This document shows positions 6,360-54,729 of a stretch of DNA of 64,000 nucleotides, in pieces. The stretch is from positions 11,390,883 to 11,454,882 of the forward strand of contig CM119269.1 of NCBI GenBank assembly GCA_051294375.1. Reading direction: 5' to 3'. The stretch is from Paraspadella gotoi (Eukaryota; Animalia; Chaetognatha). The notes beneath the pieces were generated by a model. The model made no database searches and had not been told where the DNA came from. It was given only the letters and a program-made list of their open reading frames with translations. A program made the translations under genes and the position numbers. Position 1 is the first letter of the stretch. The number at the start of each line of letters is the position of its first letter.

Positions 6360-6962
6360 GGCGGGCCAAAATTGAATACTTTTTATAACTTTTAATTCTC
6401 TCAAAAAAATTCCTTTTTTCCTTCTATTACTAAATCGATTTTCAATGCAACTTTTTGAATTAGTTCATTGGTTGTTGCACTGAAGCTTTTAAATATTTAT
6501 TAATATATAACAAATGACAACAATTTTTTTTTAAAAAAATAGTTTTTAAGAACGATTCCTATAGAGCTTGAAAAGTTAAATGAAGAGTCTACTTAGTACT
6601 ACAATTTTTAAAAATTTTGACAAGAAATTGGTTAAAAACAGAAAAAACGTTAAAAAATCATCATCATCATCATCATTGGCTGAATTTTATATTTTTTAAA
6701 ATTTTATCAATAAAACAAAAAAATTTTTAAAATTTGTATTAATAAACTTTATCTAACTTTTAAAGCTCTATCAGAATCCATTTAAAAAAATTGAAAAATT
6801 CCAAAAATATTTTAACCTTTATATAGTAATAAAATAATCTTTAAATGCTTCCGTGCGCTATTTAATAAGATAATTTTTCTAAAATTTTTATTTTCATATT
6901 CTCTACAGTCACTTTATCATTATTTATTTGAGAGAACTTCTAGTTTTCAACCTGTTCCAGCC
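6360..6962. mobile_element. AT-rich MITE (PIF/Harbinger-like) inserted in the GIY-YIG domain of PLE copy A
   Basis: Interrupts colinearity with copy B. TAA TSD at 6357-6359 and 6963-6965. Imperfect TIR GGCGGGCCAAAATTGAA / TTCAACCTGTTCCAGCC. Confidence 0.65.
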
Positions 6963-8946
6963 TAATGCGCTATTAGCCGTGTGTTCGGCTATACAGATAG
7001 GTAGTGGCTCTAGCGTCACGATAGGGTCTCGTATGCTGCTGGAATCGGTCTGTTAGAGATCTTCCTGTCTCGCCCACGTATGCTGCTGTGCAGGCTTGGT
7101 TGCCCGCCCCTGCACACGCGCTCAATAGACGCTCCTGATGTTTTCGGTCTGGGGATTTATCTTTCGTTCACCAATAGCTCACGCAGAGAGCCGCGGGCCG
7201 TCACTGAGGTGGAATCCCCTTGCTTTGCTAGCACCCGCACCAATGACTCAGTGATCCCCTGGTGGTAGGGAGGGACAAGTGACCCACGTTCTTTGGCGCT
7301 TCTGCTTATCTTCCAATTGCCCTGTGGTGGGCGCGTAGGCACTTCAGCAGCAAGCTCCCTTTCTGCCTCCTGGGACGGGAGTAGAAACTGCATCAGCGGC
7401 TACTTGGGCAGCCCCTAGGTGGCCACTGCCCTCAACCAGACACGGCCGTACCTAGCCCTCTCGTAGGCCCACAATGGGTAACCATTGATCGCCAAGGCCT
7501 TTTGACGTGTCAAGCTCAGCGCGCTGAAGCTCGCGGGGTCGACGGAATCAATGCAGCTCTTCTGTAAGGGACCTGACCGTGGCTAGTTAATAAGCACATC
7601 GAGCATTGGAATCGACCCATTCACCTCCTTCCACACGTCCACTTAATGCTCACCATGGATGCTGTTCAAATGGTTTAGTAAGTCCTCAATGAGGTCTTTG
7701 CGCACGGCCAGAATGGTATCGTCTCTTTCCAATACCAGAAAGATTGACTCTGCCCCATGCAACGATCGAAAAGAGGCCAAAACTCTCCACCCTCATAGTC
7801 CTCCATATAAAATCTGCCAGAGGACTTGATGTCGACTTGCCCCCTCCCTAAGCCACCAGGCTTGGCATAGTATTGTCCATCGAAACCTGAAGTACGCCAG
7901 TTCCAGGTCGAGCCGCAACAGTGCCATGATGTCATTCAATGGATTGGCGTACGCTGTGCAATGTCCGGTCTTCCCTCAGGCGGCGCTCTGCTGATTTTAA
8001 CGCCAATTCCTGGGGAATGTTTGTAAACATGCTTGTTAGATCACACGAGACCAAGCAATGACTATCGGGCACTTTTATGTGTTGCAACTTTTCCCTCAGA
8101 TCAACAGAGTTCCGGAGGTGGTGTTATTACAACGAGTGGAGTGAGGATGCGCCCCAACTCCTTCGTCATTCCATTAAAAATGGAATTGCGAGCCGATACG
8201 ATTGGGCGTAACAGTAGACGCGGCTTATGTACCTTCGGTTGACCGAAGAACAAAGGAGCGTAAGCACGTTGAGTCAGAGACCGGCTCTGACTCTCGCTCG
8301 AAACTTCACTGCTAACGGGGGACAGTATTCACATATTCTTTTTGTCACCGTCTGAATCCGAGCTCTGTAAGCTAGAGTCGGATCCTTGGATAGGAGATGG
8401 TAAGTCTTCCTATCTGCCATCATTTTGCAAACTTTTTCTTTGTAGTCATGGGCGTCCATGACTACCGCAGCTCTTCCCTTGTCCGCGGGGTGAACCATGA
8501 TTGCCTTGTTACGCTTGAGTGAAGCAATGGCCTTGCATTCACTCTTTCCGATATTAGGTTGCGGCGGGGCCCTCTTGGCATTGAGGATCCGTGCCGCCGC
8601 CGCCCGAAGGGTTGCCGCCGCTTCGGGCCGTTGATCGAGAAGCTTCGCTCCTGTCTCAACACCGACAATGAGGTCAATAGCGGGTGGGTTAATAGGGGTT
8701 GGAACAAAAGATAGGCCCTTACGTAACACGGAATCTTCGTCATTGCTTAGTGTATAGGAGGAGGTTTTTGTGCCGTCCGGATTTCATCTTCTGTCAAGCG
8801 GAACAATTCGTTTCTTTGGCGGGTTTGTCTATCCTTGACGAGTTTATTCTTCTCTCAACTCTGTGTTGGAAACTTTGCCCTCTCTCGCTCTCTGCTCACT
8901 CATTTCCTTTGCACAAATCTTTTTTGAAAGTTCATAATTATCTCTG

Positions 8947-19011: not shown

Positions 19012-19235
19012 AATGGCGAGAGGAAAAGAAAGACGCGGAAGGAGAGCGTGGGGGGGCGGGGGAGTGGAGGAGGGTCTGAGGATACTCGAGCCGGAAAAAT
19101 ATTCCCGCCGACCATTTAATTTTGCGTACCTTTAATTGGGACACGGGAAACGGGTAATTCCTTGCTGAAAATCTGTTTTAAAATCGTATATATATTGGCC
19201 CTGTAAAAATAAAGTTATTTTTTGAAACTTAATAC

Positions 19236-20400
19236 TAGGGTTACGATAACCGTTAACAGTGTTAACGTTATTAACGGTTAAAAAATAATTTTAACCTAAA
19301 CCGTTAATATATTATTTTAACGGTTTAAATTTCGGTTTAATTTTAATATTTGAAATTTTTTTTTTATATTTTTGGTATAAAATCTTTGATTTTTTATAAG
19401 AAAAAGTAATTTTTCTTGTCCCTCTCTATTCTCCTTCTTTTCCTTTCTCACCATATATTTTTTACCTCTCTCTCTCTTTTCCATTTTCCTTATTTTTTCT
19501 TTTTGTTTATTTTCAACCCCTTTTAATATTTTTATAAACTGATCTCCTTTCTGTACCTATCTCTTTCTTCTCTCTTTTTCCCCTCCTTCTTTACTCCTTC
19601 TTTCTCTCCTTTTTTCTCCCTTTTCTTTTACCTTTCATTTTTTTCTCTCTTCCAGTGTTTTTTTCTTTTTCTTATTATTTTCTCCCAATTTTTTTTTCGT
19701 TTTCCTTTCAATTAATTTTGTGCATTTACATCAAAGAATATAATTAAATATAATATATATGCACATGCAAATAGTTGCATACATTTTCTTGCAAAATTAA
19801 ATTCTTATAATAAAATAATATATCCTATTTTGCTATTTTTTTTATTTCACTCTTTAAACAAACAAGCAAATGAAATAAAACCAAAATGAATGAAAAAATT
19901 ATTAAAAAAACCAAATAAAAATAAAATGTAATAAAAAAATAATAATATAGAAGGAAGACTAATCTTAAAGATGGACATTAAGGCGCTAACCTAAAACTAT
20001 CCTTCAATCATGATATATTTTTTTAATTAAAACTGAAAAGAAAAATTAATAATCAATAAATCTTTGGATCAGTTCGATCAATCAAACTTTCAATCAAAGA
20101 AATATTATCATAATATATATATTATGAGTTATGGCTTTTTATGAAAAAATAAAACAGAAAACAAGCGTTTAAGAAATAACAACTAGAAAAATAAAGCATT
20201 GCTGATGAAGACTCTAATTGTTAGAGTCGAAACATGTCCGAAACAAAACAAATAAATTGTTTCCTCTCTAAAGATTATATTATAAAATTAACCGATTTTA
20301 ACGGTTAACGTTTAAAATATTACGTTTTAACGGTTTAATAAGCGACATTCTAACAACGCGAATTTTCTCAAAAAATTAACGGTATATCCCGGAACCCCTA
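19236..20400. mobile_element. hAT-like non-autonomous element (copy 1)
   Basis: TIR TAGGGTTACGATAACCGTTAA / TTAACGGT..GGAACCCCTA with subterminal AACCGTT motifs. Flanks TTAATAC / TTAATACC. Confidence 0.75.
20199..20241 (+). ncRNA. Minimal hammerhead ribozyme (intact core)
   Basis: TTG-CTGATGA-A-GACTCTAA-ttg-TTAGAGTC-GAAAC-AT-GTC-CGA. Confidence 0.85.
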
Positions 20401-22772
20401 TTAATACCTGCCGTGCTTCCGTCGACTGTGCCCAATGTTCCAAGAAGCGAATAGCATCCACTAATAGATTCCTTCCTGATAAAAAAAAAGTTTCATTTTA
20501 TATCCAGCCCAGAAACTAATGTCTTAATTTTGTTAGTATTCACTCATTATTCAGTCATTAATCATCATTTACAAAATACAATTAAATTTGGTTTTTAAAG
20601 GACATATCAACATTATTCGTGCACAGGTGTTCTGGTAGGGTATAGTACACAGAGCAGTTTTATTTTTTTGACATTTTTTGAATTTAGGCGATTCTGGGAT
20701 TTTAAAAATCGGCTGCTGGAAGAGTCCTATGGGGGGAAAATGAAACGAGAAAGAAGATTGCAAAAAAAAATTGGTTTCATTACCGGAAAAAAAAATTAGG
20801 AACGAATGACAACACAAGAGTCCAAACCCCTTTAAAACTTTTCGGCGCGCAAAACTATTATATATTTTTTATTCATAATATCTAATAATATTTAATTTTT
20901 TTTATTTTATAATGTAATTTAATTTTTAAATTATTTTAAATAAAATATTTAAAGTAAAATTTGAATTTTTCAAGTTAACCCCTATAATATCTTCCTATTT
21001 AAAACTCTAACTCTACTATAATTTCTATCTCCTATCTCTCCCCATAACTCGTTAATATATATATATATAAATCTTCTCTCTCTAACTTTACTCTCCTCCC
21101 AATCTCCTTATCTCTAAACCTCACTTAACCTAACCCTTATTTACCCCTATCCTCAATATACTATATCTAATCCCAACTTACTTATACAATAATCCTCCTA
21201 ACCTTAATTAATTCTTATTATACTCTTACCTATAATCTAACCAGTTATATTTAAGGTGATATTATATCTATATCTTTTACCCCTTCCCCCTCTCATTCAC
21301 CCTCCTCTTTCCCTCCCTCTTCCTGGGATTCGTGTGGCTCTCTCTATCGAGATTTTCAGTTCACCTCCTCTCTCTTTTTCTCCTACTAGCTTCTCTCCCT
21401 TTTTTTTTTTTTTTAACCCTCATTTTTGTCTCAGTATAAGATTATTTTTTTCCTTCCGTAATATATTAGTCCTCCCCTCAATCTCTCTATCATTCTTCGT
21501 CTCTATATCTCTTTCAGAGTGTGCGCCTCAATTGGCTCGAAGCCATCCCACGGACCCCTCTCTCCTCCTCTCTGTGATTAAGAGTCCCTCCCTTCTATAT
21601 CTCTATTCTGGTTCTCTCTCTGAGGGGTACTCGGCAAAATTCGAATATATAATTATAATATATATATATAAATTCCTCCTGTATGATATCGAGGCGTCGA
21701 ATCTCCGTCGTACGATCACACTGTATTTCTCCCATTGAACCGGATCGAAAAACAAAAACGTTCGATTGGTGCAGGACGCGAACAGAGCCGCCGCCCATAT
21801 TGTTTCGTAAGTTAAAATGTATCGCCGATCGGTCCGTTTTCATTCGCCGGTGCCAAACTGTCATCATCTCTCCTTTTTGTCAGTTATTCCGGAATCCTGT
21901 CCACTTGTCATCATTTCAGACAAACCTGGTCAGTAGGTGAACCTGCTTAAAGGCTGTTCATCACTGACCCATAAGTCTGATTTAATCTGTCAGAGTTAGG
22001 TCGCGAGATTATGTCAGACATTTATGTCATGGAGACATTTCTTCTACTCAGAAGATTTTATGCCGCACGCTGCTTTTGTCCTCAGATTCCGCGTGAACGG
22101 TTGGAATCCGTTAAGCTCTCCGAGACCCGGTTTCCCTGTCTTTATATGCTACATAATTTGTCATCAGTTCCTAGATGTCAGTCATTGCCATATAAATAAA
22201 ATTGGACGAAGAGATAAAACTGAATTCCAATTGTCCATTTTACACAAAAATTTGGAATTGGAAATTATTTCCAGCTGCCCCCGTGCGCCGGCGCGCCGCG
22301 CGCGCGAGCGGGTCTTCAACCCTCCCAACAAAAAACAGTTAAATATGTCAATCCCAAATCAGCATTCCGACTAGTGAGTAATAATTAATAACCAACAACT
22401 TTCGCCGCTCATTAATGTAATTCCAATTCCTCGCAGTCGAGCGCCAACATCAATATGTGCTGCCAACAAGCCTTGAATCAAATAAACTGATTCTTTTAGT
22501 ATTTAGTCACTACACACATTGTAAAAAAAAATGTCTTCTTCCATACACCCATACACCGGCCCCCAATCATTCCAACCCCCTAAAACCCTTCAACCCATCC
22601 AACCAAGCCCATGAAGCACGTGCAAGGAGGGTCTGAGGATATCGAGCGGAAATATTCCCGCGACCTTATTTCGTACCTTTATTGGGACACGGGAAACGGG
22701 TAATCCTGCTGAAAATCTGTTTAAAATCGTATATATATGGCCCTGTAAAATAAAGTTATGAAACTTAATACC

Positions 22773-23942
22773 TAGGGTTACGATAACCGTTAACAGTTTT
22801 TGGTTAACGTTATTAACGGGTTAAAAATATTAATTTATACCTAAACCGTTTAATATATTTATTTTAACGGTTTAAATTCGGTTAATTTTTAAATATGAAT
22901 TTTTTTTATATTTTTGGTATAAAATCTTTGATTTTTATAAGAAAAGTAATTTTTTCTTGTCCCTCTCTTATTCTCCTCTCCTTTCTCACCATATATTTTT
23001 TACCTCTCTCTCTCTTTTCCATTTTCCTTATTTTTTTCTTGTTTATTTTCAACCCCTTTTAATATTCTATACTTAAATCTCTCATTCCTTTCTGTACCTA
23101 TCTCTTTCTTTCTCTCTTTTCCCCTCCTTCTTTACTCCCTTTCTTTTCTCTCCTTTTTTCTCCCTTTTCTTTTACCTTTTCATTTTTTTCTCTCTTCCAG
23201 TGTTTTTTTCTTTTTCTTACTTATTTTCTCCCAATTTTTTTTCGTTTTCCTTTCAAATTAATTTTTGCATTTACATCAAAGAATATAATTAAATATATAT
23301 ATATATGCACATGCAAATAGTTGCATACATTTTCTTGCAAATATAAATTTCTTATATAAAATAATATATCCTATTTGCTATTTTTTTTATTTCACTCTTT
23401 AAACAAACAAGCAAATGAAAATAAAACCAAAATGAATGAAAAAAATTATTAAAAAAACCAAATAAAAATAAATGTAATAAAAAAATTAATAATAGAAGGA
23501 ACTAATCTTAAAATGGACATTAAGGCTACATCTAAAACTATCCTTCAATCATGATATATTTTTTAATAAAACTGAAAAAAAATTTAATAATCAATAAATC
23601 TTTGGATCAGTCGATCAATCAAACTTTCAATCAAAGAAATATTATTCATAATTTATATTTATGCGTTATGGCTTATGAAAAAATAAAACAGAAAACAAGC
23701 GTTTAAGAAACTAACAACTAGAAAAATAAAGCATTTGCTGATGAAGACTCTAATTGTAGAGTCGAAACATGTCCGAAACAAAACAAATAAATTGTTTCCT
23801 CTCTAAAGATTATATTATAAAATTAACCGATTTTAACGGTTAACCGTTTTAAAAATATTAGTTTAACGGTTTAAGCGAAATTCTCAAAAATTAACGGTCT
23901 GGATCATCTTTCTCAAAAAAATTAACGGTTATCGGAACCCTA
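22773..23942. mobile_element. hAT-like non-autonomous element (copy 2)
   Basis: TIR TAGGGTTACGATAACCGTTAA / TTAACGGTTATCGGAACCCTA. Perfect 8-bp TSD TTAATACC at 22765-22772 and 23943-23950. Confidence 0.85.
23734..23777 (+). ncRNA. Minimal hammerhead ribozyme (duplicate of 20199)
   Basis: TTTG-CTGATGA-A-GACTCTA..TAGAGTC-GAAAC-AT-GTC-CGAA. Confidence 0.82.
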
Positions 23943-24717
23943 TTAATACCCCGTGTCCATTGTCCAATGTCCAAAAGCGAATGTCACTAATAGATTCCTT
24001 CCTGAATAAAAAAAAAGTTTCATTTAATACCCAGAAACTAATTCTAATTTTGTTATATTCACTCATTATTCAGTCATTAATCATCATTTACAAATACAAT
24101 TAAATTTGGTTTTAAAGGGACATATCAAGCATATCGTGCACAGGTGTTCTGGTAGGGTAGTACAAGAGCAGTTTTATTTTTTTGACATTTTTGAATTTTA
24201 GGCGATCTGGGATTTTTAAATACGCTCGAGAGTCCTATGGGGAAATGAAGAGAAAGAAGATGAAAAAAAAATTGTTTCATTACCGGAAAAAAAAATTAGG
24301 AACGAGACAACAATGATCTCAAAGCCCTAAAACTTTCGGGGCAAACAATTTCTTTTGATTTTTTTTATTCTTTATAAAAACTTGAAAAGATATTAATTTT
24401 TTTTATTTTATAATTGTTTTAATTTAATTTTTAAAATTTATTTAAATTTTTAAATATTTAAAGTAAAATTTAATTTTTCAAGTTAACCCCAGTATAACCT
24501 TATAATTAACTCTAACATACTATTATCTTTATCTTATCCCTAACCCCAACTTTCTCGTAAACCTAACTTACCCCAAACCCTAACTTATCTCTAACCTCAC
24601 TTAACCTAACCCTTATTTACCCCTATCCCAAACTTACCTCTAACCCTAACTTACTCTTAACAATTATTTACCCCTAACCTTAAATTCTTTTTAATTTTAA
24701 CTTACCTATAATCCTAA

Positions 24718-24966
24718 CCAGTATATAAGGTGATAGACAGACGCGGGTCTATTACCCCCTCCTTCTCATTCACCTCCTCTTCATCCTCCTCCCTGGGATT
24801 CGGGGCCGCGTTCACGAGATTCAGTTCACCTTCCTCTCTTCTCCTACTAGCTTCTCTCCCTTTTTTTTAACCCTCATTTTTGTCTCAGTATAGATTTTCC
24901 TTCCGTCAATATATTAGTTTCCCGCATTCTCGTCACTTTACTTCCGGTTAGGATACCTTTTCAGAG
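24718..24966 (+). mobile_element. LTR-like segment (TATA to U5 end) preceding a tRNA-Lys PBS
   Basis: TATATAAGG, then hairpin GGTGATAGAC/GTCTATTACC. Ends TTTTCA-GAG directly before TGGCGCCC. Near-identical to 29994-30239. Confidence 0.65.
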
Positions 24967-25030
24967 TGGCGCCCAATGTGGGGCTCGAACCCACGACCCC
25001 AGGATTAAGAGTCCCGTGCTCTACCGACTG
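24967..25030 (-). pseudogene. tRNA-Lys(CTT) retro-copy with CCA, lacking ~12 5' nt (extended PBS)
   Basis: Minus strand CAGTCGGTAGAGCACGGGACTCTTAATCCTGGGGTCGTGGGTTCGAGCCCCACATTGGGCGCCA. It has the D arm part, CTT anticodon, T arm and encoded CCA; the 5' acceptor strand is missing. Confidence 0.9.
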
Positions 25031-27774
25031 GTCCGTCGAGTCACCGTCAAAAAATTCGAAAGAAAATAATTTTTCCGACGAATTCGAGGCTCGAATCTCC
25101 GTCGTCAACTGTATCTCCCATTTGACGGATCGAAAACAAAAAGTTCGATTTGAAGGAAAGAGCCGCAATGTTTCGTAAGTTTAAAAGTTCGCGATCGTCC
25201 GTCATCGTCGGTGCCAACTGTCATCATCCTTTTTGTCAGTTATTCGCGGAATCCTGTCCACTGTCATCATTTCAGACAAACCTGTCAGTAGTGAACCTGC
25301 TAAAGGCTGTCAGTCACTGACACAGCTGATTTATCTGTCAGAGATTAGGTCGGAGATTATGTCAGAATCTTATCGTCAGAGAGAGTCCTTTCTTCTCACA
25401 CGCTATCAATCAGCGAGATTTTCTGTCAGACAGTGCCGGTTCTGCTTTTGTCATTCAGCTACTGTGTGAATCGAGGTCAGTCTTTAATGCTGAAAACATT
25501 TGTCATCATCTAGAGTCAGTCATTGCCAAAAAAATTGGGAGAAAACTGATTCCATTTCCAGTTTCCAAAAAAATTGAATTGGAAATATTTTCCAGCCCCC
25601 CTGCCCCCCACTCCTTCAACCCCCCCAACAAAAAATTCAGTTAATATGTCAATCAAATTATTCCGCCTAGTGTTAATTAATAACAACAACTTTGCCTATT
25701 TTAATGTAATTGCATCAAATGCTGCCAACAAGCCTTGAATCAAAAAACTATTCTTTAGTATTTTAGTCACTACCATCATGTAAATAAAAATTCTTCCAAC
25801 TCCCATAAACCCCCTCCCAACCCATCCAACCCCCAAAACCCTTCAACCCATCAACAAGCCTTGAGTCAAAATTTGCCATTTTATCAGTCTCAGTTCTAAA
25901 CCTCACTTAGTGTTAAACTCACTTATAGTCTTGTATAACAAATGAAGCAGATTCTCACCATTCAGTTCTCCTCTTTTGCAAGGAGGATAATGTTAGCTTT
26001 ATTCACAAAATATTTCAAATGTATGATCTCTTAGATTAAATAAAAATGAATGGCTAAGTACTTTTAAGGTGGCCCAACTGGAGCTAGAAAAGGCCAAAAG
26101 TGATTGGAAGAATTGGTGACAGTCACCTATTTAATTGTCTGCTTGACCACAAGTTAATCGCTCATATAATGCATTTGCCACCGCAGGGTGCGCTACAATC
26201 AATTCGAATCGTATCAAATTCAAATGGAACAAAAAATGAACGTGCATAATTCGCCCTCCCCCCTTTGTGTATCCTCAACACTGCAGATGCTAAAAAGAGT
26301 GGTGACTGAGAGTTTATCAGTCCTTTATTTACTGTGATTGTTAATCAGAGGTTTCTATGACATTTTGTCTTAGTCTGACAAAAATTAAGCCACCCTGACA
26401 AAATTTTACTCTGAGTGATGTGGTTTAATCCTGTATCATTCTGCTTCATTAGTTGCTTACAAAGTCAAAAAAAAAAAAGAGAAAAACGATAACTCGTGCC
26501 ATTCATAAAATTGAGTTTCACTCAGAGATGTGGACGCGATCCGGAAAGCGTAAGCGAACACTGTGGAAGCGGCCGATTTTTGAAGAACCCGAAACGCGGA
26601 GCGATAGAAAAATTATAAGAATAAAGGAATTACCCGGAAGCTATAATAACCCTGCGTGTTCGCTTCCTGGTCATTTGTTTTAATAGTTAGAAATGAAAGG
26701 TATTTAATGTAATAAAATCTTTGCAACCCCTGCTCTTTCTTGATTTGTCTTTTTTAAAATTGTTTTTTCAATATTTATTTTCAACATTTAAAATTGTTTG
26801 TTCCTATTTTTTATTCACTTTTTCTTATTCTCTCTTCTTTATTTTTTTTGTTTTCTTTTATTCTCTTTTCCTTTTTGGTCGAGAATCTATGAAAAAATTA
26901 CATATTTATTTTTTTAATTATTCTTTTTAATATATTCAAATAAAATCTGAGCTGAAAAAAAGATTTTTTCTATCTGAAAAAAACTGTAATTAAGTTAAAT
27001 TAAAATTTAAATTAAACTTTTTTAATTCTATAAAACTAAAAATTTTATTTCTTATATTTTTATTATTTTTCTTTAAATTTAAGTCTCTTTTTTTTAAATC
27101 CATAACGTTTTTCATGTTACAAACAAGTTTAAACCAAAAGGATTGATCTGTTTTATTGGCAATATTGCATAATATTATGCTTATACATACTTAAATCTCT
27201 AACATACTCTCTCTCTCTATCTTCTTTCTTTTTTCCCCTCTTGCACTGAACAAAAAAGCAAATAAAAAAAATATATAAATAAATAAATCAAAAATATTAA
27301 TAAACAAGTTTGAGCAAACAATGCCGGATCTGCCCATGTCATTAGCGGTAATTAATTGATTAATTAATTGAAAAAAAATAAATTATTTAATTAATTACAT
27401 ATTAATTAATTAAAATAATAACATCGAACATTTGGGAGCTCAAATGATTTGAACAAAGACGACAACGACGATGAATACAATGACGAAAACGATGACGAAG
27501 TCTTTGTACTTTGTGAGCCATAGTACAGTAGTGGTCAATAAGAATGACCTGTTTTTACCTAATCTTGTTATGCTGACCTTTTTCTCAGCCAATGTAATAC
27601 TAGTTGTTATTATTATTTTATCATTTTTACTTTTTTACTGTTTTTGATAATACCAGGTTTTTTTATCACAAAAAACACGCCTCAAAATTTTCTATAAATT
27701 TTTGTTTTGATGCACCGCAAACATTATAAAAATATTTAATTAATTAATTTAGAGAAAGCAAAGAATTTTGAATT

Positions 27775-32850: not shown

Positions 32851-35120
32851 TCAGATGAGGGTCATTGGCAGGTTAAGGCTGGTCATTAGGATGGTCATTG
32901 GCCTGTGATCGGGTAGTGGGATAAGACCCATTGCAACCCTAATGTCCACGAGGCCTGTTATCCCTACAGCTTGCCCTCCTCTCCTCTGCTGAGGAGGAGG
33001 GCCTTGTTCCCTTATTGCCTGCTTTGCAGCTGGCTCAGGGACCCCGCCATCTTCCAGCTGCAGCCGTCTTTTGGGTGGGCGCCCGGGATAGGGAGAGTCA
33101 TCCCGGGTTGCTACAGTTGAAGATGCGGTACTGCTTGGCCACTGACGTGCCAGGGAAGGTCTCCCTCTGTCCCGTTGAGTAGGGACAGGGGAGTTGTTGT
33201 GGGGCTTGGGTGGTTCAGGACGAACCACCACGCCACTGAGGAGCGAGTCATAGCTGGGGGGCAGCTGGAATCGCCTTCCATCACGGTTCAAAGAGGGCTC
33301 GAGGGCTTTGATGTAAATTGCCTCTCTAATACCTCTTGTGTACCAGTTATTGTCTCTGGCCAGCATGAGACAGTCAGTTTCTCTAAACAGATGGCCTGTT
33401 TCATGCGCGTGCTCTGCTATGGCCGACAGGAAGTGACCATATTTGTCTCTAGAGGGACGTTTGTGTTCTTTGAACCGATCTGTCAGAGACTTCCCTGTCT
33501 CACCCACATATGCTGCTGCACAGGGTTGGTTGCCCGTCCCTGCACAGGCTGCCATATAGACAGTGCCTGACGTACTGGGTTTGGGGACTTTGTCTTTCGG
33601 TTTCACCAGTAGTTCGCGTAATGAACCACGAGCCGTTACTGAGGTGGAAATCCCCTGCTTGGTGAGCACCCGCACCAGCGGCTCAGTGACTCCCTGGTGG
33701 TAAGTAGACAGCATTGGCCAATGGTTCTTTGCCGTTTCTGTTTAGTCTCCGGTGCCACTGTGGTGGGCGGCGGTGGGTTTTCCACAGCAGACGGCTCTGC
33801 CTCAAGGGGGGGTGAGGCGAGAATCACGTGATTGGCTACTTGGGCAGCCCCCTGTTGGCCACTGCCCTCAACCGGGTGGCATTTGTATCTGGCCTTCTCG
33901 AATGCCCACAGAGGGTAACCATTGATCGCCAGGGCTTTTTTTACATGCTCAAGTTCGGCGGCTTTAAGCATGGGCGTGGAGGGAATAAGTTTGGCCCTTC
34001 TGGTTAAGGATGATACTGTAGAGAGTTTGTGCGACAGTGGAGCGTGTGATTCGAACGGTATATACTGATCAGTGTGCGTTGGCTTCCTATATACCGAAAA
34101 TTCCAAGCTTCCGTTGTCCTTACGTGTGATAAGGACGTCAAGCATAGGAATTTTTCCGTCTCTCTTTTTCACACGTCCATTTAATGGATCTCTCGATGGC
34201 GTTGAGATGCTGCAAGAGCTGATCTGGGAGATCCCTCTTTACTGCCAACACCGTGTCATCGGCCTTCCTAAACCAAAAGAGAACCGAGTCCTCTCCATGT
34301 GCTTGCCGAAAAGAGGCCAAAGCTTCCACCTCATAGTCTTCCATATAGAAGTCTGCCAGAGGACTAGATGTGAATTTGCCCATCCCTAAGCCACCAGGCT
34401 GAGCATAGTAAGTCCCATCGAACCTGAGGTACGCCAGTTTCAGGTCGAGTCGCAACAGTGCCATGATATCCTCCACTTGGATTGGTGTATGCTCGTGTTA
34501 CATCCGGTCTCCCTTGAGGCGGCTCAGCAGATGCCAAGGCTTTCTCTTGTGGGATGTTGGTAAACATGCTTTGCAAGTCACACGAGACCAAGAGATGGGN
34601 NNNNNNNNNNNNNNNNNNNNNNNNTATCAGGCACTATGGTTTGTTGCAACTTTTCTGTCAGATCCACAGAATTTCTGAGGTGGGTTGGTTTCCGACTAGA
34701 GGAGTGAGGATTCTCCCAACTCCTTAGTCATTCCATTAAAAATGGAATTACGGGCAGAGACGATCGGGCGCAGTGGTAAGCCGGGCTTATGCACCTTGGG
34801 TTGACCGAAAAAATAAAGGAGGCTGCGTTGAGTCAGGATTGACTCTGTGGAATACTGACGGGGGGCAGTATCCATGTATTTTGCTTGTCACTAACTGGAA
34901 CCGAGCCCTGTAGGCTAGGGTGATCCTTAGGCAGAGGCTTATATTCCCCACGATCAGCCATCATAGCCTTTACTTTCTCCTTATAGTCATGGGCGTCCAT
35001 GACTACCGCAGCCCTTCCTTTATCAGCGGGATGAACCATAATTGCTCGATTTTGCTTAAGTGAGGCAATGGCCTTGCGCTCACTTTCACTGACGTTTTGC
35101 GGGGGCGGTGCCCGCTCGCG
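32851..35120 (-). pseudogene. Frameshifted PLE polyprotein (RT - linker - GIY-YIG - C-terminal tail)
   Basis: ORF pieces 34833-35153, 34364-34591, 34138-34476, 33636-34172 and 32851-33714 join in domain order. Confidence 0.9.
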
Positions 35121-40088: not shown

Positions 40089-40178
40089 CTGGGACTTTAG
40101 ACAGGCTTTGGTGGTTCATCGCTCTTACAAGATAATTACGAATATGTGAATAGTATTCATTAAATTTTAAAACCCAAT

Positions 40179-40969
40179 CTGGTGGTGCCTATCACCACAG
40201 ATGGAATTAAAGCTGTTTCTTTCGCCATGCTCCTCAGTGGGCTCAGTGGACTAAATGCACATCCCATTGTGCCGTCCCTGCTTTCCGAGCCCTGAGTTGT
40301 CATTAGAAAGTTGGATGGACCGGGTAACCGGCCTGTTAGGCATGGGCCCCTACTGCCAGATCCAAAGCTCTGGACTACATGGAACATCTGTCTCGCTGTC
40401 GCCAACGATCGACTTGGTGACACCGCTGCGGAATGTGGTATTGTGCGCCCCTGTATAAACCAGCCTCTTCAATGCGTGAGCCCGACGTGATACGAACACG
40501 CAAACCAACCCGGGCATTGATATCTTCCTCTGCCACTTTTTGATGTGTTGAGACTACACAGCTTGCCCATCAAGCAGCCAAGGACCACCAGAATGATAGA
40601 GAGGTTCAGCGGGAGAGAGGGAGGCATGCGCTTCATTCCCCCTGCTTCGTACTCTCTATGGCGAGAGTCCTGGGGCGGCTGTTCTGGTTCGCGTCCTCGA
40701 TCACCACAGATGGGATTCAAAGCTGTTTCTTTCGCACGGCTCCTCAGTGGCTCAGTGTGACCTATATGCAACCATCCCAAATGTGGTCCCTGGTTCGAGC
40801 CCTTGAGGTTGTTCATGCTAAAAGTGGGATGGACCTGTAACCCGCCTGTAGGCATGGGCCTACTGCCAGATCCACAAAGCTCCTGGACTACAATTGAACA
40901 TGCTGTCTTGGCTGTCGCCACGAGGTACACGCTGCGGGTGTGGTCGCCCTGTTAAAAACCAGCTCTTCA
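40179..40969 (+). mobile_element. TRIM-like LTR mini-element, noisy duplicate copy
   Basis: Colinear with 42236-42960 including flanks, with many indels. Confidence 0.75.
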
Positions 40970-42501
40970 CCAATTATTTATTTTTTAGTTTCTCTTTCAA
41001 TTCTTTTAGTTTAGGTCTAAATTCACCTCTTTACTACTTTACGATCTTCTGAATATTTTTGATCTATGCCGTTACACCTGCTTCACAGTTAATTTTCCGT
41101 TCAATTTTAAAAAAGAAAATTTTAAAATAAACTAAATAGCACTTTTCTGTTAATGGATATTGTTTCGCACTTGCTGGGAAAAACAGTAAAAAAGAAAGAA
41201 TGGGGCGGGCCTAAAAAAAAGAGAAGGCCTAATTCTCATTGTCTCAACTAAAAAGAGAGATTACCATGTCGTCTTAAGAAGCGTTCACGGACGATCTATT
41301 TGGCTGAGACAGGGCCAGGGCGGATTACCATGATTGCTGTACGAAAATTATTCCAGTGTTGTTCGATTGGCAAAAACCAAAAAAAAAAAGCTTTCCTCTA
41401 AAAACGAAAAAGGGTCCTGCAGTTTCTTCTCATTGGTGAAAACAATTAACTAGCGTCAATTCCGATTCACGGCCGCAGACCCGCACAGGGAACAGTAGCG
41501 ACAAGGGAATTTGAGTTGGTCCAATTGTAATCACACATCAGACATTTCTGGCGACCTGGACTGCTTCGCCAATCACTAGTGTTGGCTATATTGATCTCAC
41601 GCACATAACGAGAGCGATGCCGATAGCAATCCCAATAGCTATGCCGATAACGATGACGCTAGCGAAAGTGGCCGAGTGCGTAACAACCCTCAGCATTCAA
41701 ACCAAAGCGACGAGACTCTTTTCATATGCAAATGAAAAANNNNNNNNNNNNNNNNNNNNNNNNNNNNNNNNNNNNNNNNNNNNNNNNNNNNNNNNNNNNN
41801 NNNNNNNNNNNNNNNNNNNNNNNNNNNNNNNNNNNNNNNNNNNNNNNNNNNNNNNNNNNNNNNNNNNNNNNNNNNNNNNNNNNNNNNNNNNNNNNNNNNN
41901 NNNNNNNNNNNNNNNNNNNNNNNNNNNNNNNNNNNNNNNNNNNNNNNNNNNNNNNNNNNNNNNNNNNNNNNNNNNNNNNNNNNNNNNNNNNNNNNNNNNN
42001 NNNNNNNNNNNNNNNNNNNNNNNNNNNTCTTCTCTTTTACAAAGCTTTTTACACTGCGTGACTTTGTTCCTTTGTCAAGCCTATGAAATTGGTCAAACCA
42101 ATATAAAAAAATTATCCATTCATTTAATAAACGAGCTATCTTGCCCCTGACTTTAGACAGGCTTTGGTGGTTTTCATCGCTCTTACAAGATAATTACCGA
42201 ATATGTAATATGTATTCATTAAATTTAAAACCAATCTGGTGGTCCTATCACCACAGATGGATTAAAGCTTGTTTCTTTCGCAGCTCCTAGTGGCTCAGTG
42301 GACTAATGCACCATCCCAATGTGCGTCCCTGGTTCGAGCCCTGAGGTTGTCATGTAGAAAGTGGGATGGACCGGGTAACCCGCCTGTAGGCATGGGCTAC
42401 TGCCAGATCCAAAGCTCTGGACTACATGAACATGCTGTCTCGCTGTCGCCACGAGGTGACACGCTGGCGGGTGTGGCGCCCTGTAAAACCAGCCTCTTCA
42501 A

Positions 42502-42533
42502 TGGTGAGCCCGACGTGATACGAACACGCAACC
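42502..42533 (+). promoter_or_regulatory. Extended primer-binding site complementary to the 3' end of tRNA-Trp
   Basis: TGGTGAGCCCGACGTGATACGAACACGCAACC, whose reverse complement GGTTGCGTGTTCGTATCACGTCGGGCTCACCA matches the conserved eukaryotic tRNA-Trp T arm/acceptor plus CCA. Confidence 0.85.
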
Positions 42534-42747
42534 AACCGCGGGCATGATAATACTCCTCTGCCCTTGATGTGGTTTGAGCTACACAGCTGCCACTCAAAGC
42601 AAGGCCACCAGAATGAAGAGAGGTTCAGCGGAGAGACATGCGCTTCATCCCCTGCTTCGTACTCTCATATGCGAGAGTCCTGGGGCGGCTGTCTGGTGGT
42701 CCTATCACCACAGATGGATTAAAGCTGTTTCTTTCGCAGCTCCTCAG

Positions 42748-42799
42748 TGGCTCAGTGGACTAATGCACCATCCCAATGTGGCGTCCCTGGTTCGAGCCC
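42748..42799 (+). promoter_or_regulatory. Pol III type-2 promoter (A and B boxes) in LTR2; also 42291-42341 in LTR1
   Basis: A box TGGCTCAGTGG and B box GGTTCGAGCCC, 30 nt apart. Flanking CCTCAG/CTGAGG can pair. Confidence 0.75.
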
Positions 42800-44636
42800 T
42801 GAGGTTGTCATGTAGAAAGTGGGATGGACCTGGTAACCGCGCTGTAGGCATGGGCCTACTGCCAGATCCAAAGCTCTGGACTACATGAAATGCTGTTCTT
42901 GCTGTCGCCAACGAGGTCACACCGCTGCGGGTGTGGCGCCCTGTAAAACCAGCCTCTTCACAATTAATTTTTTTTAGTTCTCTTCAATCTTTTAGTTTAG
43001 GTTAATTCACCTCTTACTACTTACGATCTTCTGAATATTTTTGATCTATGCGGTAACACTGCTTCACAGTAATTTCCGTTTCAATTTTAAAAAGAAAAAA
43101 TTAAATATAAACTAAAGCACTTTTCTGTTAATGGAGTTACTGTTTCGCACTTGCTGGAAAAAAGTAAGAAAAGAAAGAATGGGGCGGCCTAAAAAAGAAG
43201 CCTAATTCTCATTGGTCTCAACTAAAAAAGAGAGATACATGTCTCTTAAGAAGCGTCACGGACGTCTATTGGCTGAGACAGGCCAGGGCGATACCATGAT
43301 TGGTCGAAAATTATCCAGTGTTGTTCGATTGGCCAAAACCAAAAAAAAAAAAGCTTTCCTCTAAAACGAAAAAAGGGTCCTGCAGTTCTTCTGATTGGTG
43401 GAAACCAATTACTAGCGTCAATCCGATTAGCCGGACGCGCAAGAAAGTAGGAAGGAATCTCTCTCTTTCTCTCTCTCGCGGGGGAGGACCGATTGGTTTG
43501 GAGACGAGAAGCCTTTAGTGGGCAGAGTAAAAGTTGATCACTTTGGGGCAAAACTGGGAAAAGCGCGTCAAAATAGTTCTAGGAGGAAGAGGAAGAGGAG
43601 GAAGAGACATGGAGAGCAGGGTGAAATGAAGGTTAAGGGTGGCGGAATAAAGGACAAAAAGAGATACGGGATGTCGAGGAAAAGAAGGAAAAAAGGATAA
43701 ATAGAAGAATTTTTTGTAATAAAATGGGGAGTGAGTCCAAGTATGTCATCCTTCAGAATCGCTTCCCCCGGGGCAGCTCCGAGGGGCAGGCAAATTCTTA
43801 CCGCCTTGGGGCGGCCCCCTGTAGCCTCTCTTTTTGGGCCCCAAGGGGCCACTCCAGGGGGAATCCCCCAGGGGCTAGAAAAACCTTTTGACTTGGGGCC
43901 ACCCCCAGGGGGATGAATTTGCCTGCCCCCTGGAACGGCTCTCTCTCCCTCCTATCTCTCTTTCCCTCTCCTCTCTCTCCCTCTCTCACTCTCTTTCTTT
44001 ATCTCTTTTCTTTTTTCATTTTTTATTAAAATAAAATATAAAAATAAAAATAATATTTTTCAATTCAATTAATCAATCAATGAATCAATAGCTGCGCCAA
44101 CACCAACTTGCATAATTTAGTCAAATGACATAATTTGATTAACTGACATAATTTGGTCAACTGATATGTACCGAATAGTCGTTAAGCGTTGTACGTGACG
44201 TGTTTTGTACTTAGTTACCGTTGTTTACAGGCGTTTCTAGGCCGATAGAATTTGGAGATAGACGTTTTTGTTGAAGAAGCGCGGAGCCGGCGGGGAATAA
44301 TTTCAACAAAATAGCGGTTTCATGAGAACGGTCATTGTTCACTTGCCAGATTAGTGAGTATTTAATGAAATGAACATTGAAATAATTAGTGATTTGATCA
44401 TCAATTGACACTGTTAAAGGTTTTGAACACTTCACAATACATTTATTTGATCATTCTGACTGGCATTTGACTTAATAGACAGACAGTAAAATTAGGTTCT
44501 CGAAAAGTCGCGTTTTTCACTTTAGTTACGTTTAGTTCTAATCGCGGCATCGAGTCTAAATGATCAGGTTGGTTAGATAGGATTATTTTTTGTTGCATTT
44601 TAATTGGCACAACATGCGCGTTAGCGTATAGTAAGA

Positions 44637-46190
44637 TTACATAGCTTTTTTCCCCATCTTTATTTTCCTTTTTGATGTATAGTGCGGCTCCGTAGCCGTC
44701 CAGCGAAGTGTGACAAAACTATCAGTTTCGTTGTTACGCTGTCTAATCCCAGCATCGACGTCTATCGCGGGATTCGAATCTTCTTCAAGTGGATCATCTT
44801 CTTCCTCCAGTTTTAACATCTCTCTTCTCATATTGACTTCTTTCTCCGACTTGTCCATTACGCGGACAAAGAAGACGTCTCTCCTCGCATTGTACCGTAC
44901 CCCCAGCACCTTTGAGTCGTGCTGATCCAACGTCGGGTCCTCGGGAAGTGCGTTCTCCGCGATCTTCTCCAAGTTGTCTTCCAGATCCTCCTCTTTCTCT
45001 CTGTCCGTCTCCTTCGTCATCTCCTTTTCTTCCTCATCCTTACTTGGGCTGTCAAGGAGAATTCTCTCGTCGGAGGCTTGCCACTTTGTCATCTCGAATC
45101 CTCCTCTCTTCATCGCGTCTGTCATGTTGATCCTCATCTTCCTTGCCTCCTTTATCCCGTCCAACGCATCCAGGTAATCGTTGACATAGATTTTTAAGAA
45201 AAATGCTGATATTACCTCCGGCGGAAATTCCTTCAGCTGGCTCAGTTTCTTCCCGTGATATTGTAGGACGAACGTCGCTACTCCTCCAAACACATATACC
45301 AACGGCTCGTGAACTTCGAGCGTCCTCATCGTCTTATCTGTGTACCAATGATAGCGGAACGCGGCCACGTCTTTTGGATGTAACAGTAACTCCACTTGAT
45401 GAAAAAACCCTTTTATATCTGCTGAGATCATGTATCTTTTTCGACGAAACTTCAACAGCATGCCGACCAACGGAGTGAGGTTATCCGGTCCTGGAATCAA
45501 GTGATCATTCAAACACGTCCCCTTCACCTTCAACGACGCGTCCTGACATAAGCGAAACTTGCCTGGTTTGTCTGCCCGAGTTACAACTAACAACGGCGCA
45601 AAAAACTCCGGCTGCCCTTCTGGAGGATGTTCGACAGTTACTTTCCTCACGTGTCCCGACTTGATAGTCTCTTCCATCGTCTTGAACACTCCCTCTCGAA
45701 TGACCGGATCCTTCCTCATTTTTGCCACCAACTTCCTCGCCAAATTCTCGGCACTCTTTGTTACATCGTCACAAATTGTTTCAAAAAATTTTGCCGTTTT
45801 CTATCTTCCTCGTTTCCATGGCGACGGCGCCACATAATGCCCTGTTTTATCATTAAAGTAAATTTCCCCTTCCAGTTGTTCGTACGCGAAATCGTCTTGT
45901 GCGGATGAGTGTTGTACTTTGGAGGGATACAGTTCTGACCCCTTCAACAGGAAGACCTGTCTTTTTTGAAACTGGGTTCGCCAAAAATAGTAATTTTTTT
46001 GAAATGATCTCGGTGTAGGTCTCTTGCGTCGAGAACGTTGCGGCGCGATTTGTTTCCGTAGCGCGAATGTGAAACTTCTCCATTTGGAGTATGAATGTGC
46101 GGACCCCGACAATTTCGGACCCTTCAGTAGGTCCTCCAGCATTTGATGTGCTGTGAAACTTTGGCAAACGACTTTCCTAGCGACAATCAA
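44637..46190 (-). pseudogene. BEL/Pao LTR retrotransposon pol fragment (RT)
   Basis: KFRLCQDAS..CLNDHLIPGPD..LLKFR..SADIKGFFHQV..FRYHW..YVND..GGFEMTKW..KVLGVRYN are BEL/Pao RT motifs. Truncated, with YVDD degenerated to YVND. Confidence 0.9.
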
Positions 46191-50916: not shown

Positions 50917-51679
50917 TGTAATGTAATGTACATTACAAAATTAAATACACATGTTCAAATAAAATGTAAGCCAAAGTATTAATGAAATCCACTTGAGAGT
51001 TGAGGAGAGTCCACTAGGAATTATGAAGCTGTGGTCTGTAGTCACTTGAGACCCTTATATTATTAATTACCTTACCAAGTCTTAACACTTAACCAAGTCT
51101 TACCAGACTTAACCTTAACCAAGTCTTACCAGACTTAACCTTAGAGTTATTATTTCCAACCAGTCCTTCCTGGACTTAGGCGTTTTCAGTCTCTCCTGGA
51201 CTTAGGCGTTTCAGTCTCTCCTGGACTTAGGCGTTTTCAGTCTCTCCTGGACTTAGGCGTTTTCAGTCTCTCCTGGACTTAGGCGTTTTCAGTCTCTCCT
51301 GGACTTAGGCGTTTTCAGTCTCTCCTGGACTTAGGCGTTTTTCCAGTAACTTTTCCAGCCGGACAGAATTTCCCCTTACACTTCAGAGGGTCTCAATTGA
51401 CTCCTGACCACAGTCTGTGGCACTCCTCCTTATATAGGCAGATTTTGTCACGTGATTTCTCCTCTGGAATTGGTTTGGGACTTAGCAGGCCCGTAAAAGC
51501 CCCCCTTTTGCTTTAGCCTTCTCCTAACTGCCCTTTTGTTTTTAGCCATTTCCCTCTTTTGCTCAAAGCAATCTCTGCTTCACTTATAACCAATTTTTTT
51601 GCTTCTTAAGCTTTTCTTAAGACCAACCTTTGCTTTTGCTCAAAGCCAATCCTTGCTTTGCCTAAAGCCTATCCCTACA
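50917..51679. mobile_element. Probable solo LTR
   Basis: TGTA..TACA ends, flanks ATAAC/ATATC (5-bp TSD, 1 mismatch), TATA-like CCTTATATAGG at ~51428. Confidence 0.5.
51168..51342. repeat. 26-bp tandem repeat, ~7 copies
   Basis: Unit CTCCTGGACTTAGGCGTTTTCAGTCT, nearly identical copies, no spacers. Confidence 0.92.
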
Positions 51680-52236: not shown

Positions 52237-52473
52237 TATGGCAACAGCCATTGGGATGGGGCATCTCACTGTTGGCTTTGGGGGCTTCCGACCCTCAGTG
52301 ACGCCTCCTGTCACTGGCGCGGTTACCCTAGGACGGTCTCGCTTTGCCAACGCAGAGGGAAGTCGTTAGGACTGTGGATGGAACACTACGCCTGGGATGG
52401 TGTGTTCCCCCTCTGAGCCAATGGATTTGGCTGAATGATGGTGGACGTGAGGCGGTGTGAATATACCGCCACA
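52237..52473 (-). mobile_element. Solo LTR-like GC-rich element, distant relative of the 42.2-kb TRIM
   Basis: Ends TATGGC..GCCACA with 4-bp TSD ATAT. The minus strand has TGGCTCAGAGG, CACCATCCCA, GGGTAACC and GCTGTTGCCA in the same order as the TRIM LTR. Confidence 0.55.
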
Positions 52474-54613: not shown

Positions 54614-54659
54614 TGGCGCCCAATGTGGGGCTCGAACCCACGACCCCGGGATTAAGAGT
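54614..54659 (-). pseudogene. 3' 46 nt of tRNA-Lys(CTT) with CCA (extended PBS)
   Basis: TGGCGCCCAATGTGGGGCTCGAACCCACGACCCCGGGATTAAGAGT. The match stops at the 5' side of the anticodon loop. Confidence 0.88.
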
Positions 54660-54729
54660 AACGGGTAGTCTTTCATTTTAAACAAATTGAAACTACTCAA
54701 TTATAAGTTTTTATTATTTTAAAATTCAG

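What the first reader, a model, noticed from the sequence alone, without database searches (positions are those of the whole stretch)
42236..42960. Non-coding LTR mini-retrotransposon carrying a tRNA-like Pol III promoter in each LTR
Seen: two ~265-bp direct repeats ending TTCA, a tRNA-Trp PBS, a ~190-bp non-coding interior, a purine-rich tract, a 4-bp TSD CAAT, and A box TGGCTCAGTGG plus B box GGTTCGAGCCC in each LTR. Established: Cassandra TRIMs carry 5S-derived promoters in their LTRs. From memory, Helenus TRIMs carry tRNA-like ones and have 4-bp TSDs in animals. Inference: this is a SINE/LTR hybrid, transcribed by Pol III and mobilised by a tRNA-Trp-primed LTR partner, probably a new family in this lineage. 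The 5' end reads CTGG rather than the canonical TG.
Basis: partly seen in the sequence, partly recalled or inferred. Interest (0 to 1): 0.85.

Follow-up and report, generated by a model that had tools for sequence, protein, structure and literature searches.

The report
Mini LTR retrotransposon with twister ribozyme
A 726-base, gene-less jumping element, present in many copies in what is likely an animal genome, carries in each end repeat tRNA-type promoter boxes followed by a twister ribozyme fold that is predicted to cut only when the two repeats pair, which would release a likely circular RNA for copying, a design the papers read here describe only in plants and with a different ribozyme.

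Summary
The element is real: a multi-copy, non-coding LTR mini-retrotransposon (42235-42960) with a tRNA-Trp primer site and Pol III A/B boxes. The copy at 40.2 kb is an assembly duplicate. A divergent solo LTR in the same window (52237-52473, minus strand, 57% identical, duplication ATAT) keeps that fold through compensatory changes. In both, helix P1 is only a short palindrome, as in dimer-dependent amphibian hammerheads. Best model: an animal LTR retrozyme, likely Pol III-transcribed, whose two LTR twisters pair, cut out a 458-nt unit, and give a circle copied by a Trp-primed Gypsy partner. Cleavage, circles, Pol III use and the partner are untested; Rfam does not call the twister, and the tRNA-like head no longer folds as tRNA. 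It meets the motif-level Helenus definition, but the Helenus paper mentions no ribozyme; its only Trp-primed families carry, by my reading of the supplement, an unreported hammerhead at the same place.

The parts
42231..42234 (+). Left target-site duplication CCAA (4 bp)
   Evidence: 5' terminus set by loose ends before 42692 in LTR2 register
42235..42500 (+). 5' LTR, starts TC, ends TTCA
42284..42348 (+). Decayed tRNA-like head: A box 42291-42301, B box 42331-42341; folds as a rod, not a cloverleaf
42350..42429 (+). Type-P5 twister ribozyme fold: P5 42350-57/42422-29, P2' 42361-64, catalytic G-A 42365-66, T1 42367-69 with 42409-11, UAA 42376-78 (predicted cut 42376/42377), P2 42379-81, T2 42382-83 with 42414-15, P3 42384-42402, P4 42403-07/42416-20
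42370..42375 (+). 6-nt P1 linker: A and G around a 4-nt palindrome; no hairpin alone, 4-bp homoduplex predicted
   Evidence: contig X5 record 20 matches 42289-42391 without difference
42502..42519 (+). Primer-binding site for tRNA-Trp (17 of 18)
42501..42691 (+). Non-coding interior, 191 bp; weak G-rich purine tract at about 42676-42689, then a TG dinucleotide not present at integrated 5' ends
42692..42960 (+). 3' LTR: A box 42748-42758, B box 42789-42799, twister 42808-42888 (predicted cut 42834/42835); the window carries read errors here
42961..42963 (+). Right target-site duplication, one C short in the window
   Evidence: (table 5c)
42968..42975 (+). First run of four or more T downstream of the head (T8, in the flank): possible Pol III stop at this locus
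40178..40969 (+). Noisy second copy with the same flanks: assembly duplicate of the same insertion, not an independent copy
   Evidence: 40093-41467 aligns to 42149-43428; 8 substitutions against 108 gap columns; N gap 41740-42027 between them
52237..52473 (-). Solo LTR of a related family, 237 bp, TG...TA ends with a 5-of-6 terminal inverted repeat, ATAT on both sides; A box 52420-52410; twister fold about 52351-52271 with 8-nt palindromic linker 52333-52326

Best explanation
This is a multi-copy non-autonomous LTR retrotransposon whose LTRs carry tRNA-type A/B boxes followed by a type-P5 twister ribozyme fold, and it likely works as an animal LTR retrozyme: Pol III would transcribe through both LTRs, the two twisters are predicted to pair through their palindromic P1 linkers and cut out a 458-nt unit, which would be circularised and then copied by a likely tRNA-Trp-primed Gypsy partner. 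Shown: anatomy, termini, multi-copy state, the twister's sequence and pairing features and their covariation in a second family. Inferred: Pol III use, cleavage, dimer dependence, circle, partner. The cut removes the repeat (R) needed for strand transfer, so a circle is the simplest template; a circle holds only one twister, which cannot close P1 alone and so would be stable; a solo LTR transcript would be cut poorly; cutting also frees the 3' end from depending on a flanking terminator.
For: Mobile TRIM: (distinct junctions: 18 and 25 behind the 3' end, 7 and 4 before the 5' end; holders in 3 studies). Twister: segment-by-segment match to the published S. mansoni table and to the P3 consensus that Rfam prints; descriptor hits both LTRs and nothing else in 64 kb, 0 of 100,000 and 1 of 100,000 shuffles, positive control 109 of 123 phage loci, 0 of 26 chance loci; a model built only from phage twisters ranks 42358-42421 first of 8 hits, in register (12.1 bits, E 0.069); 3-nt P2, one P2 mismatch and the same T1 variant occur in Rfam-passing twisters. 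Selection: the solo LTR is a collinear homolog (137 of 242 columns, 0 of 2,000 shuffles) with the catalytic letters unchanged and T1, P3, P4, P5 re-paired with other letters. Dimer: both families have a short palindromic linker (chance 0.064 and 0.016), against 2 of 141 phage linkers; A...G closure is the commonest natural P1 base (84 of 140); precedent: axolotl hammerheads with one base pair under a palindromic tetraloop cut well only as dimers. Retrozyme cycle. Parallel case: hammerhead read by eye in the Trp-primed Helenus-2_SyJa/SyUm LTRs.
Against: No cleavage, transcript or circle was observed. Rfam reports no twister in the element and only 13.5 bits, E 8, in the solo LTR; model R1 is not significant by itself, was built from 54 of 142 cores chosen for features like ours, and misses the solo LTR; my descriptors were written after seeing the motif and also miss the solo LTR (C-A mismatch in P2). 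The 6-nt linker is shorter than all 140 natural P5 linkers (8-29 nt) and P2 has 2 of 3 pairs, so a dead or slow ribozyme is possible. Covariation rests on two families. The B box is not kept at the homologous place in the solo LTR. Lack of T4 runs is not significant (3,180 of 5,000 shuffles). In the predicted fold most of the PBS is paired. No autonomous partner seen; the purine tract is weak; the TC start is unexplained.
Confidence: 0.62

Rival explanations
1. Ordinary Helenus-type TRIM: the twister is a passive relic captured with a SINE or LINE piece, does not cut, and a linear Pol III transcript with a normal R region is the template.
For: P1 is missing and P2 imperfect; Rfam negative; tRNA-headed SINEs often carry RTE 5' UTR pieces and RTE 5' ends carry twisters; an uncut transcript would already have an R region.
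Against: A relic should not keep every catalytic letter while re-pairing four helices between families 57% identical; the published RTE twisters are in P1 order, this one is permuted; both families independently show palindromic linkers.
Confidence: 0.15
2. A twister retrozyme that is transcribed by Pol II or by read-through; the A/B boxes are relics or serve RNA structure.
For: The solo LTR keeps the A box and a decamer but not the B box in place; the head has lost the cloverleaf and its A and B boxes pair with each other; known retrozymes are said to lack promoters.
Against: Both boxes are perfect and 40 nt apart in this family (1 of 20,000 shuffles); across contigs only one row (42789, one contig per run) falls in a box.
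Confidence: 0.13
3. The twister cuts as a monomer or in trans and only trims ends; the RNA stays linear and reverse transcriptase jumps between abutting ends without a circle.
For: Twisters lacking P1 still cut, inefficiently; P5 holds the two halves together without P1.
Against: Does not explain the palindromes; double cleavage leaves no R region, which in plant retrozymes is solved by circles.
Confidence: 0.07
4. Not an LTR element: a tandem non-LTR retrozyme or SINE dimer moved by a Penelope-like element, with a chance tRNA-Trp match.
For: The window holds Penelope-like remnants; animal retrozymes known so far are of this type.
Against: Fixed termini at both ends, 4-bp duplications, PBS one base behind the 5' repeat, a TG-ended solo LTR with ATAT duplication.
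Confidence: 0.03

Closest known systems
Helenus (TRIMp3), Kojima 2024, PMC10886601; nearest layout Helenus-2_SyJa / -2_SyUm of gall wasps
   Same: Under 1 kb, two LTRs with A box (TRGCY..YGG) and GGTTC, PBS, 4-bp TSD; the Synergus families share Trp PBS, 277-bp LTR and a head in the 5' third followed by a long tail.
   Different: No shared family sequence found (3 diagnostic 10-13-mers: 0, 0 and 1 hit, the last a Gypsy PBS row in Fig. S2); TC start; head far more decayed; twister fold. The paper names no ribozyme in any Helenus; most listed families I saw end the LTR shortly after the tRNA part with a T-rich run.
Plant LTR retrozymes, Cervera et al. 2016, PMC4918200
   Same: Non-coding, LTR-PBS-PPT-LTR, 4-bp TSD, one self-cleaving motif per LTR that would release a unit RNA without R, Gypsy-type priming.
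   Different: Twister P5 instead of hammerhead III; tRNA-Trp instead of tRNA-Met; likely animal host; smaller (458-nt unit against 600-1000); internal Pol III boxes; activity untested here.
Twister ribozyme type P5 (Rfam RF02684) and the S. mansoni Perere-3 twisters (PMC8501958)
   Same: UAA site, catalytic G-A, T1, T2, P2, P4 with 8-nt loop; P3 flanks identical to the S. mansoni/Rfam P1-type consensus.
   Different: P1 reduced to a 6-nt palindromic linker; below Rfam thresholds; sits in an LTR, not at a LINE 5' end.
Animal non-LTR retrozymes and Sm-alpha SINE (PMC7229834, PMC6765202, 10.64898/2026.07.22.740005)
   Same: Dimer-dependent ribozyme through a palindromic loop (axolotl); Pol III head plus ribozyme (Sm-alpha).
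   Different: Those lack LTR, PBS and PPT, use hammerhead I and are tied to Penelope-like elements.
Cassandra and Ajax
   Same: TRIMs with a Pol III promoter in each LTR.
   Different: 5S-derived (A-IE-C boxes); Cassandra ends its RNA at an LTR terminator, which this element lacks.

Membership tests
TRIM | Two LTRs, under 1 kb, non-coding interior | tested here: met
   726 bp
TRIM | PBS behind the 5' LTR | tested here: met
   17 of 18 to tRNA-Trp
TRIM | Polypurine tract before the 3' LTR | tested here: inconclusive
   9 of 16 purines, G run only
TRIM | Dispersed copies with fixed termini and TSD | tested here: met
   Junction contigs; TSD paired only at this locus
TRIM | TG...CA termini | tested here: not met
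   TC...CA; the related solo LTR starts TG. Usual for the class, not part of the Helenus definition read
Helenus (animal) | A box TRGCY/YGG and B box GGTTC in each LTR | tested here: met
   definition
Helenus (animal) | LTR sequence demonstrably derived from tRNA (Censor hit to tRNA or SINE2) | tested here: inconclusive
   ARAGORN, Rfam negative; T arm only, E 0.64; Censor/Repbase not available
Helenus (animal) | 4-bp TSD | tested here: met
   CCAA at one locus, ATAT at the related solo LTR; 5-bp reading not strictly excluded
TRIMp3 | Functional Pol III transcription | not testable with these tools
   Motifs only
LTR retrozyme (as defined in plants) | Type III hammerhead in each LTR | tested here: not met
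   No hammerhead core on the + strand, none by Rfam; twister fold instead. Not filed as a member; it is read as working like one
LTR retrozyme (as defined in plants) | Self-cleavage and circular unit RNA | not testable with these tools
   Only contigs were available
Twister ribozyme type P5 | Conserved core (UAA, catalytic G-A, T1, T2, L4) in P5 order | tested here: met
Twister ribozyme type P5 | P2 and P4 helices | tested here: met
   P4 5 of 5 pairs; P2 2 of 3, a pattern seen in 5 of 35 natural 3-nt cases
Twister ribozyme type P5 | P1 hairpin | tested here: not met
   6-nt linker, no monomer fold; natural range 8-29 nt in 140 cores; forms only between two copies
Twister ribozyme type P5 | Rfam RF02684 gathering score | tested here: not met
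   No hit at E up to 10
Twister ribozyme type P5 | Site-specific self-cleavage | not testable with these tools
   Needs an in vitro assay
Cassandra / Ajax | 5S rRNA-derived LTR segment | tested here: not met
   No 5S match by Rfam; boxes are of tRNA type

The most novel reading that the evidence does not exclude
Animals have their own LTR retrozymes: a group of tRNA-Trp-primed, Pol III-driven mini-retrotransposons with an exchangeable ribozyme behind the promoter (hammerhead III in gall-wasp Helenus-2, twister here). In this lineage the twister is an obligate 'double twister' whose shared palindromic P1 makes cutting depend on both LTRs and leaves the resulting circle uncuttable.
Probability: 0.45. 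Interest if true: 0.9.

Novelty: new variant of a known kind. Interest (0 to 1): 0.8.

Why it matters
The reviews and the 2026 preprint read here place LTR retrozymes in plants with hammerheads and describe animal retrozymes as lacking LTR, PBS and PPT. This element would be an animal LTR retrozyme with a different ribozyme class and its own promoter. It gives the twister, which has few known roles, a concrete and cheaply testable one; it proposes a natural dimer-gated twister; and it offers an answer to how a Pol III TRIM without an LTR terminator defines its RNA ends. Standard Rfam scans miss the motif, so other TRIM libraries may hide more.

Tried and rejected
No host genome is held, so no genome-wide BLAST, paired TSDs or partner search. 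Host not identified: 130 of 158 candidate ORFs scanned with Pfam gave only weak Pao and GIY-YIG matches and a few weak hits of no use; homologue searches gave unnamed ENA proteins; the Atlas gave no result. No RNA holder listed; X9 is a guess and covers the unique flank too, so nothing is claimed on expression. No relatives in viral contigs (0; 0), metagenome contigs (26 loci, all chance) or prokaryote genomes (30 loci, none with both P2 and P4 fully paired). Hammerhead, HDV, hatchet and pistol readings of the LTR tail were considered by eye and dropped; Rfam gave none. Whole-LTR folding is not unusual (z -0.76 and -1.92). The predicted preference for inter-LTR P5 pairing (0.83 and 0.67 against 0.05 and 0.15) ignores pseudoknots and uses error-bearing sequence, so it is not counted as evidence. 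The joint 42194-42968 in X1 and X2 removes the element plus 41 flank bases: an allele without the element, but not a clean empty site, so not used for the TSD. LTR-LTR divergence was not used for dating because most differences are read errors. Depth ratios in X9 (LTR 872, interior 211-226, flank 3.4) hint at tens of full copies and a few hundred LTRs, but the tool warns that they are no copy number. The non-canonical TC...CA motif could not be traced in print here (0 papers); I recall TCCA from the LTR_retriever motif list.
Full report
Observation. The boxes are the only strict A+B pair in the window and appear in 1 of 20,000 dinucleotide shuffles of the LTR (135 of 20,000 with the minimal Helenus motif, 20 of 20,000 relaxed). 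The PBS matches the tRNA-Trp complement printed in the Helenus supplement at 17 of 18 positions; the next best 18-mer is the duplicate copy (15), then 12. The purine tract is weak (9 of 16). The longest open frame is 106 codons and has no Pfam match.

Sequence quality and a duplicate. 40093-41467 repeats 42149-43428, element and both flanks, across an N gap, with 8 substitutions against 108 gap columns in the element. I read this as a noisy long-read duplicate of one insertion (inference). Short-read contigs disagree with the window's 3' LTR at several places in over 99% of depth, so LTR divergence is mostly error.

Termini and mobility. No genome is held. Of 12 runs listed, 9 of one organism in 3 studies hold 28-45% of the element's words; I laid 4 of them and then 3. 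Unrelated flanks join before 42692 (7 contigs in X1, 4 in X9) and behind 42960 (18 in X1, 25 in X2, the PBS junction included); 130 further loose-end rows were not shown. In table 8 three pieces start at 42692, four at 42694-42696, none at 42690 or 42693. So the element runs TC...CA, 42235-42960, and the duplication is CCAA; a contig of X1 and the duplicate copy supply the C that the window lacks. Majority letters beside both ends read ATAT in X1 and at the 5' end in X9 (agreement 0.45-0.55), a weak sign of target preference. X1 and X2 also hold an allele without the element and 41 flank bases.

The head. ARAGORN and Rfam see no tRNA. A model from 50 of 123 phage tRNA loci scores only the T arm (10 bits, E 0.64), while it finds two better tRNA-Lys-like relics elsewhere in the window. 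The head folds as a rod (z -3.4 and -2.0) closed by a 6-bp stem that begins where a tRNA acceptor stem would. tRNA origin is likely, Pol III function is inferred.

The twister. Behind the head the LTR matches, segment by segment, the twister table of PMC8501958 but in permuted (P5) order: P5 strand, AAA, P2', catalytic G-A and T1 strand, linker, UAA, P2, GC, P3, P4 with the 8-nt loop, P5 strand. T1 3 of 3, T2 2 of 2, P4 5 of 5, P5 8 of 8 pairs are Watson-Crick; P2 2 of 3. A descriptor without family-specific letters hits both LTRs and nothing else in 64 kb, 0 and 1 of 100,000 shuffles, 109 of 123 phage twister loci and 0 of 26 chance loci; it was written after I saw the motif. All 20 of the 123 phage loci that I gave to Rfam passed as Twister-P5. 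A 3-nt P2 is natural (35 of 40 parses; 14 of 14 such loci tested pass Rfam), as is this T1 variant (2 of 6 loci pass). A covariance model from 54 of 142 phage cores puts 42358-42421 first in the window, in register, at 12.1 bits, E 0.069. Against: Rfam itself gives no twister hit here, and P1 is a 6-nt linker where 140 natural cores have 8-29 nt.

A second family. A relaxed loop search found another twister at about 52351-52271, minus strand. It lies in a 237-bp solo LTR with TG start, a 5-of-6 terminal inverted repeat and ATAT on both sides. It is a collinear homolog of our LTR (137 of 242 columns; 0 of 2,000 shuffles for the whole, 6 for the head, 26 for the twister). The catalytic letters are unchanged; 2 of 3 T1 pairs change on both sides, and P3, P4 and P5 are re-paired with other letters. 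It has one C-A mismatch in P2, so my descriptors and model R1 miss it; Rfam gives twister-P1 13.5 bits, E 8. It keeps the A box and a decamer found only in these LTRs but not the B box at the homologous place. Its first base aligns with T42235, which supports the terminus and suggests TC arose from TG; our LTR has about 50 extra bases at the 3' end.

The palindrome. Neither linker folds alone; each pairs with a second copy of itself (4 and 6 pairs, -8.1 and -11.0 kcal/mol). Chance is about 0.064 and 0.016; 2 of 141 phage linkers have a palindromic centre (an imperfect control, as these are hairpin loops). Our linker closes with A...G, the commonest natural P1 base (84 of 140). Axolotl hammerheads with one pair under a palindromic tetraloop cut well only as dimers (PMC7229834). 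I infer a double twister formed by the two LTRs of one transcript.

Mechanism (inferred). Pol III starts near 42284, meets no T4 run until the flank (42968), the two twisters cut at 42376/42377 and 42834/42835, and a 458-nt unit with 5'-OH and cyclic phosphate is released. It has no R region; plant retrozymes solve this by circularisation and tRNA-primed copying of more than one turn, and RtcB circularises animal retrozyme RNA in vitro. The circle has one twister only and would be stable. A Trp PBS with 4-bp TSD fits the CsRn1 lineage of Gypsy; no partner was seen.

Comparison. It meets the motif-level Helenus criteria but matches no listed family by the motifs searched. The only Trp-primed row in Fig. 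S2 is Helenus-2_SyJa (Helenus-2_SyUm has the same start); both LTRs show, by eye, a full type III hammerhead behind the tRNA head, and the main text has 'ribozyme' and 'hammerhead' only in a reference title. I did not run these two sequences through a tool. It fails the plant retrozyme definition on ribozyme class and fails Rfam's twister threshold and P1, so I file it as a new variant that works like an LTR retrozyme.

Is it in print? Full-text searches (twister ribozyme, retrotransposon, LTR: 13 papers; 2; 0; retrozyme, twister: 17; 8; twister ribozyme, dimer, palindrome: 11; 10) listed no title or abstract on a twister in an LTR element or a natural dimeric twister; most were seen as listings only. 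The library lacks most subscription journals, Repbase and Dfam. PMC7761336 mentions unpublished type III hammerhead elements in insects. What I saw: PMC10886601 main text parts 1-4 of 6, passages, supplement parts 1, 5, 9, 10, 11 of 11 and two motif searches; PMC8501958 part 1 of 9, section 17, passages; PMC4918200 section 5, passages; passages only of PMC7761336, PMC6765202, PMC7229834, PMC3630058, PMC5786205, PMC8557442, PMC13570524; abstract and passages of 10.64898/2026.07.22.740005. The catalytic roles of the G and of the A at the cut are partly and partly recalled.

Verdict. Real element; first reading partly supported; the ribozyme is the larger finding. Best model 0.62, interest 0.8.

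Noticed in passing
PMC10886601 supplement DataS1, Helenus-2_SyJa-LTR and Helenus-2_SyUm-LTR: By eye, a complete type III hammerhead (GUC site, 7-bp stem I, core, stems II and III, 9-nt loop-loop complementarity) behind the tRNA head of the Trp-primed Helenus families; not mentioned in the paper's main text.
   Followed up: partly
window 52237-52473 (-): Solo LTR of a related family with A box and P5 twister; copy number and interior unknown.
   Followed up: yes
window 42309-42318, 42766-42775, 52402-52393: A decamer kept in both families between the boxes (3 matches, 0.01 expected). In the main element its 8-nt core is the exact complement of the twister's catalytic strand (42362-42369); in the solo LTR it is not. 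Role unexplained.
   Followed up: partly
window 42467-42472: Six bases complementary to 42378-42383 (cut site and P2): could mask the ribozyme, as reported for plant retrozyme circles; may be chance.
   Followed up: no
window 24970-25041 (-) and 54617-54692 (-): Two tRNA-Lys-like relics (47.7 and 29.4 bits) with the same B box as the element; pseudogenes or SINE heads, a possible source of the head.
   Followed up: no
window 42103-42173: Part of a very high-copy short repeat ending in a hairpin, about 60 bp left of the insertion.
   Followed up: no
window 44446-46190 (-): Broken BEL/Pao-type reverse transcriptase region (weak Peptidase_A17 match, RT homologues); not the likely partner.
   Followed up: partly
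window 32851-35084 and about 6100-8800 (-): Two diverged Penelope-like remnants (GIY-YIG, E 0.0023); no twister found beside them.
   Followed up: partly
window 19068-22609 / 22625-25860: Another noisy tandem duplication (79% identity), probably the same kind of assembly artefact.
   Followed up: no
window 51029-51413: 27-nt inverted repeats enclosing 26-bp tandem units: MITE-like.
   Followed up: no
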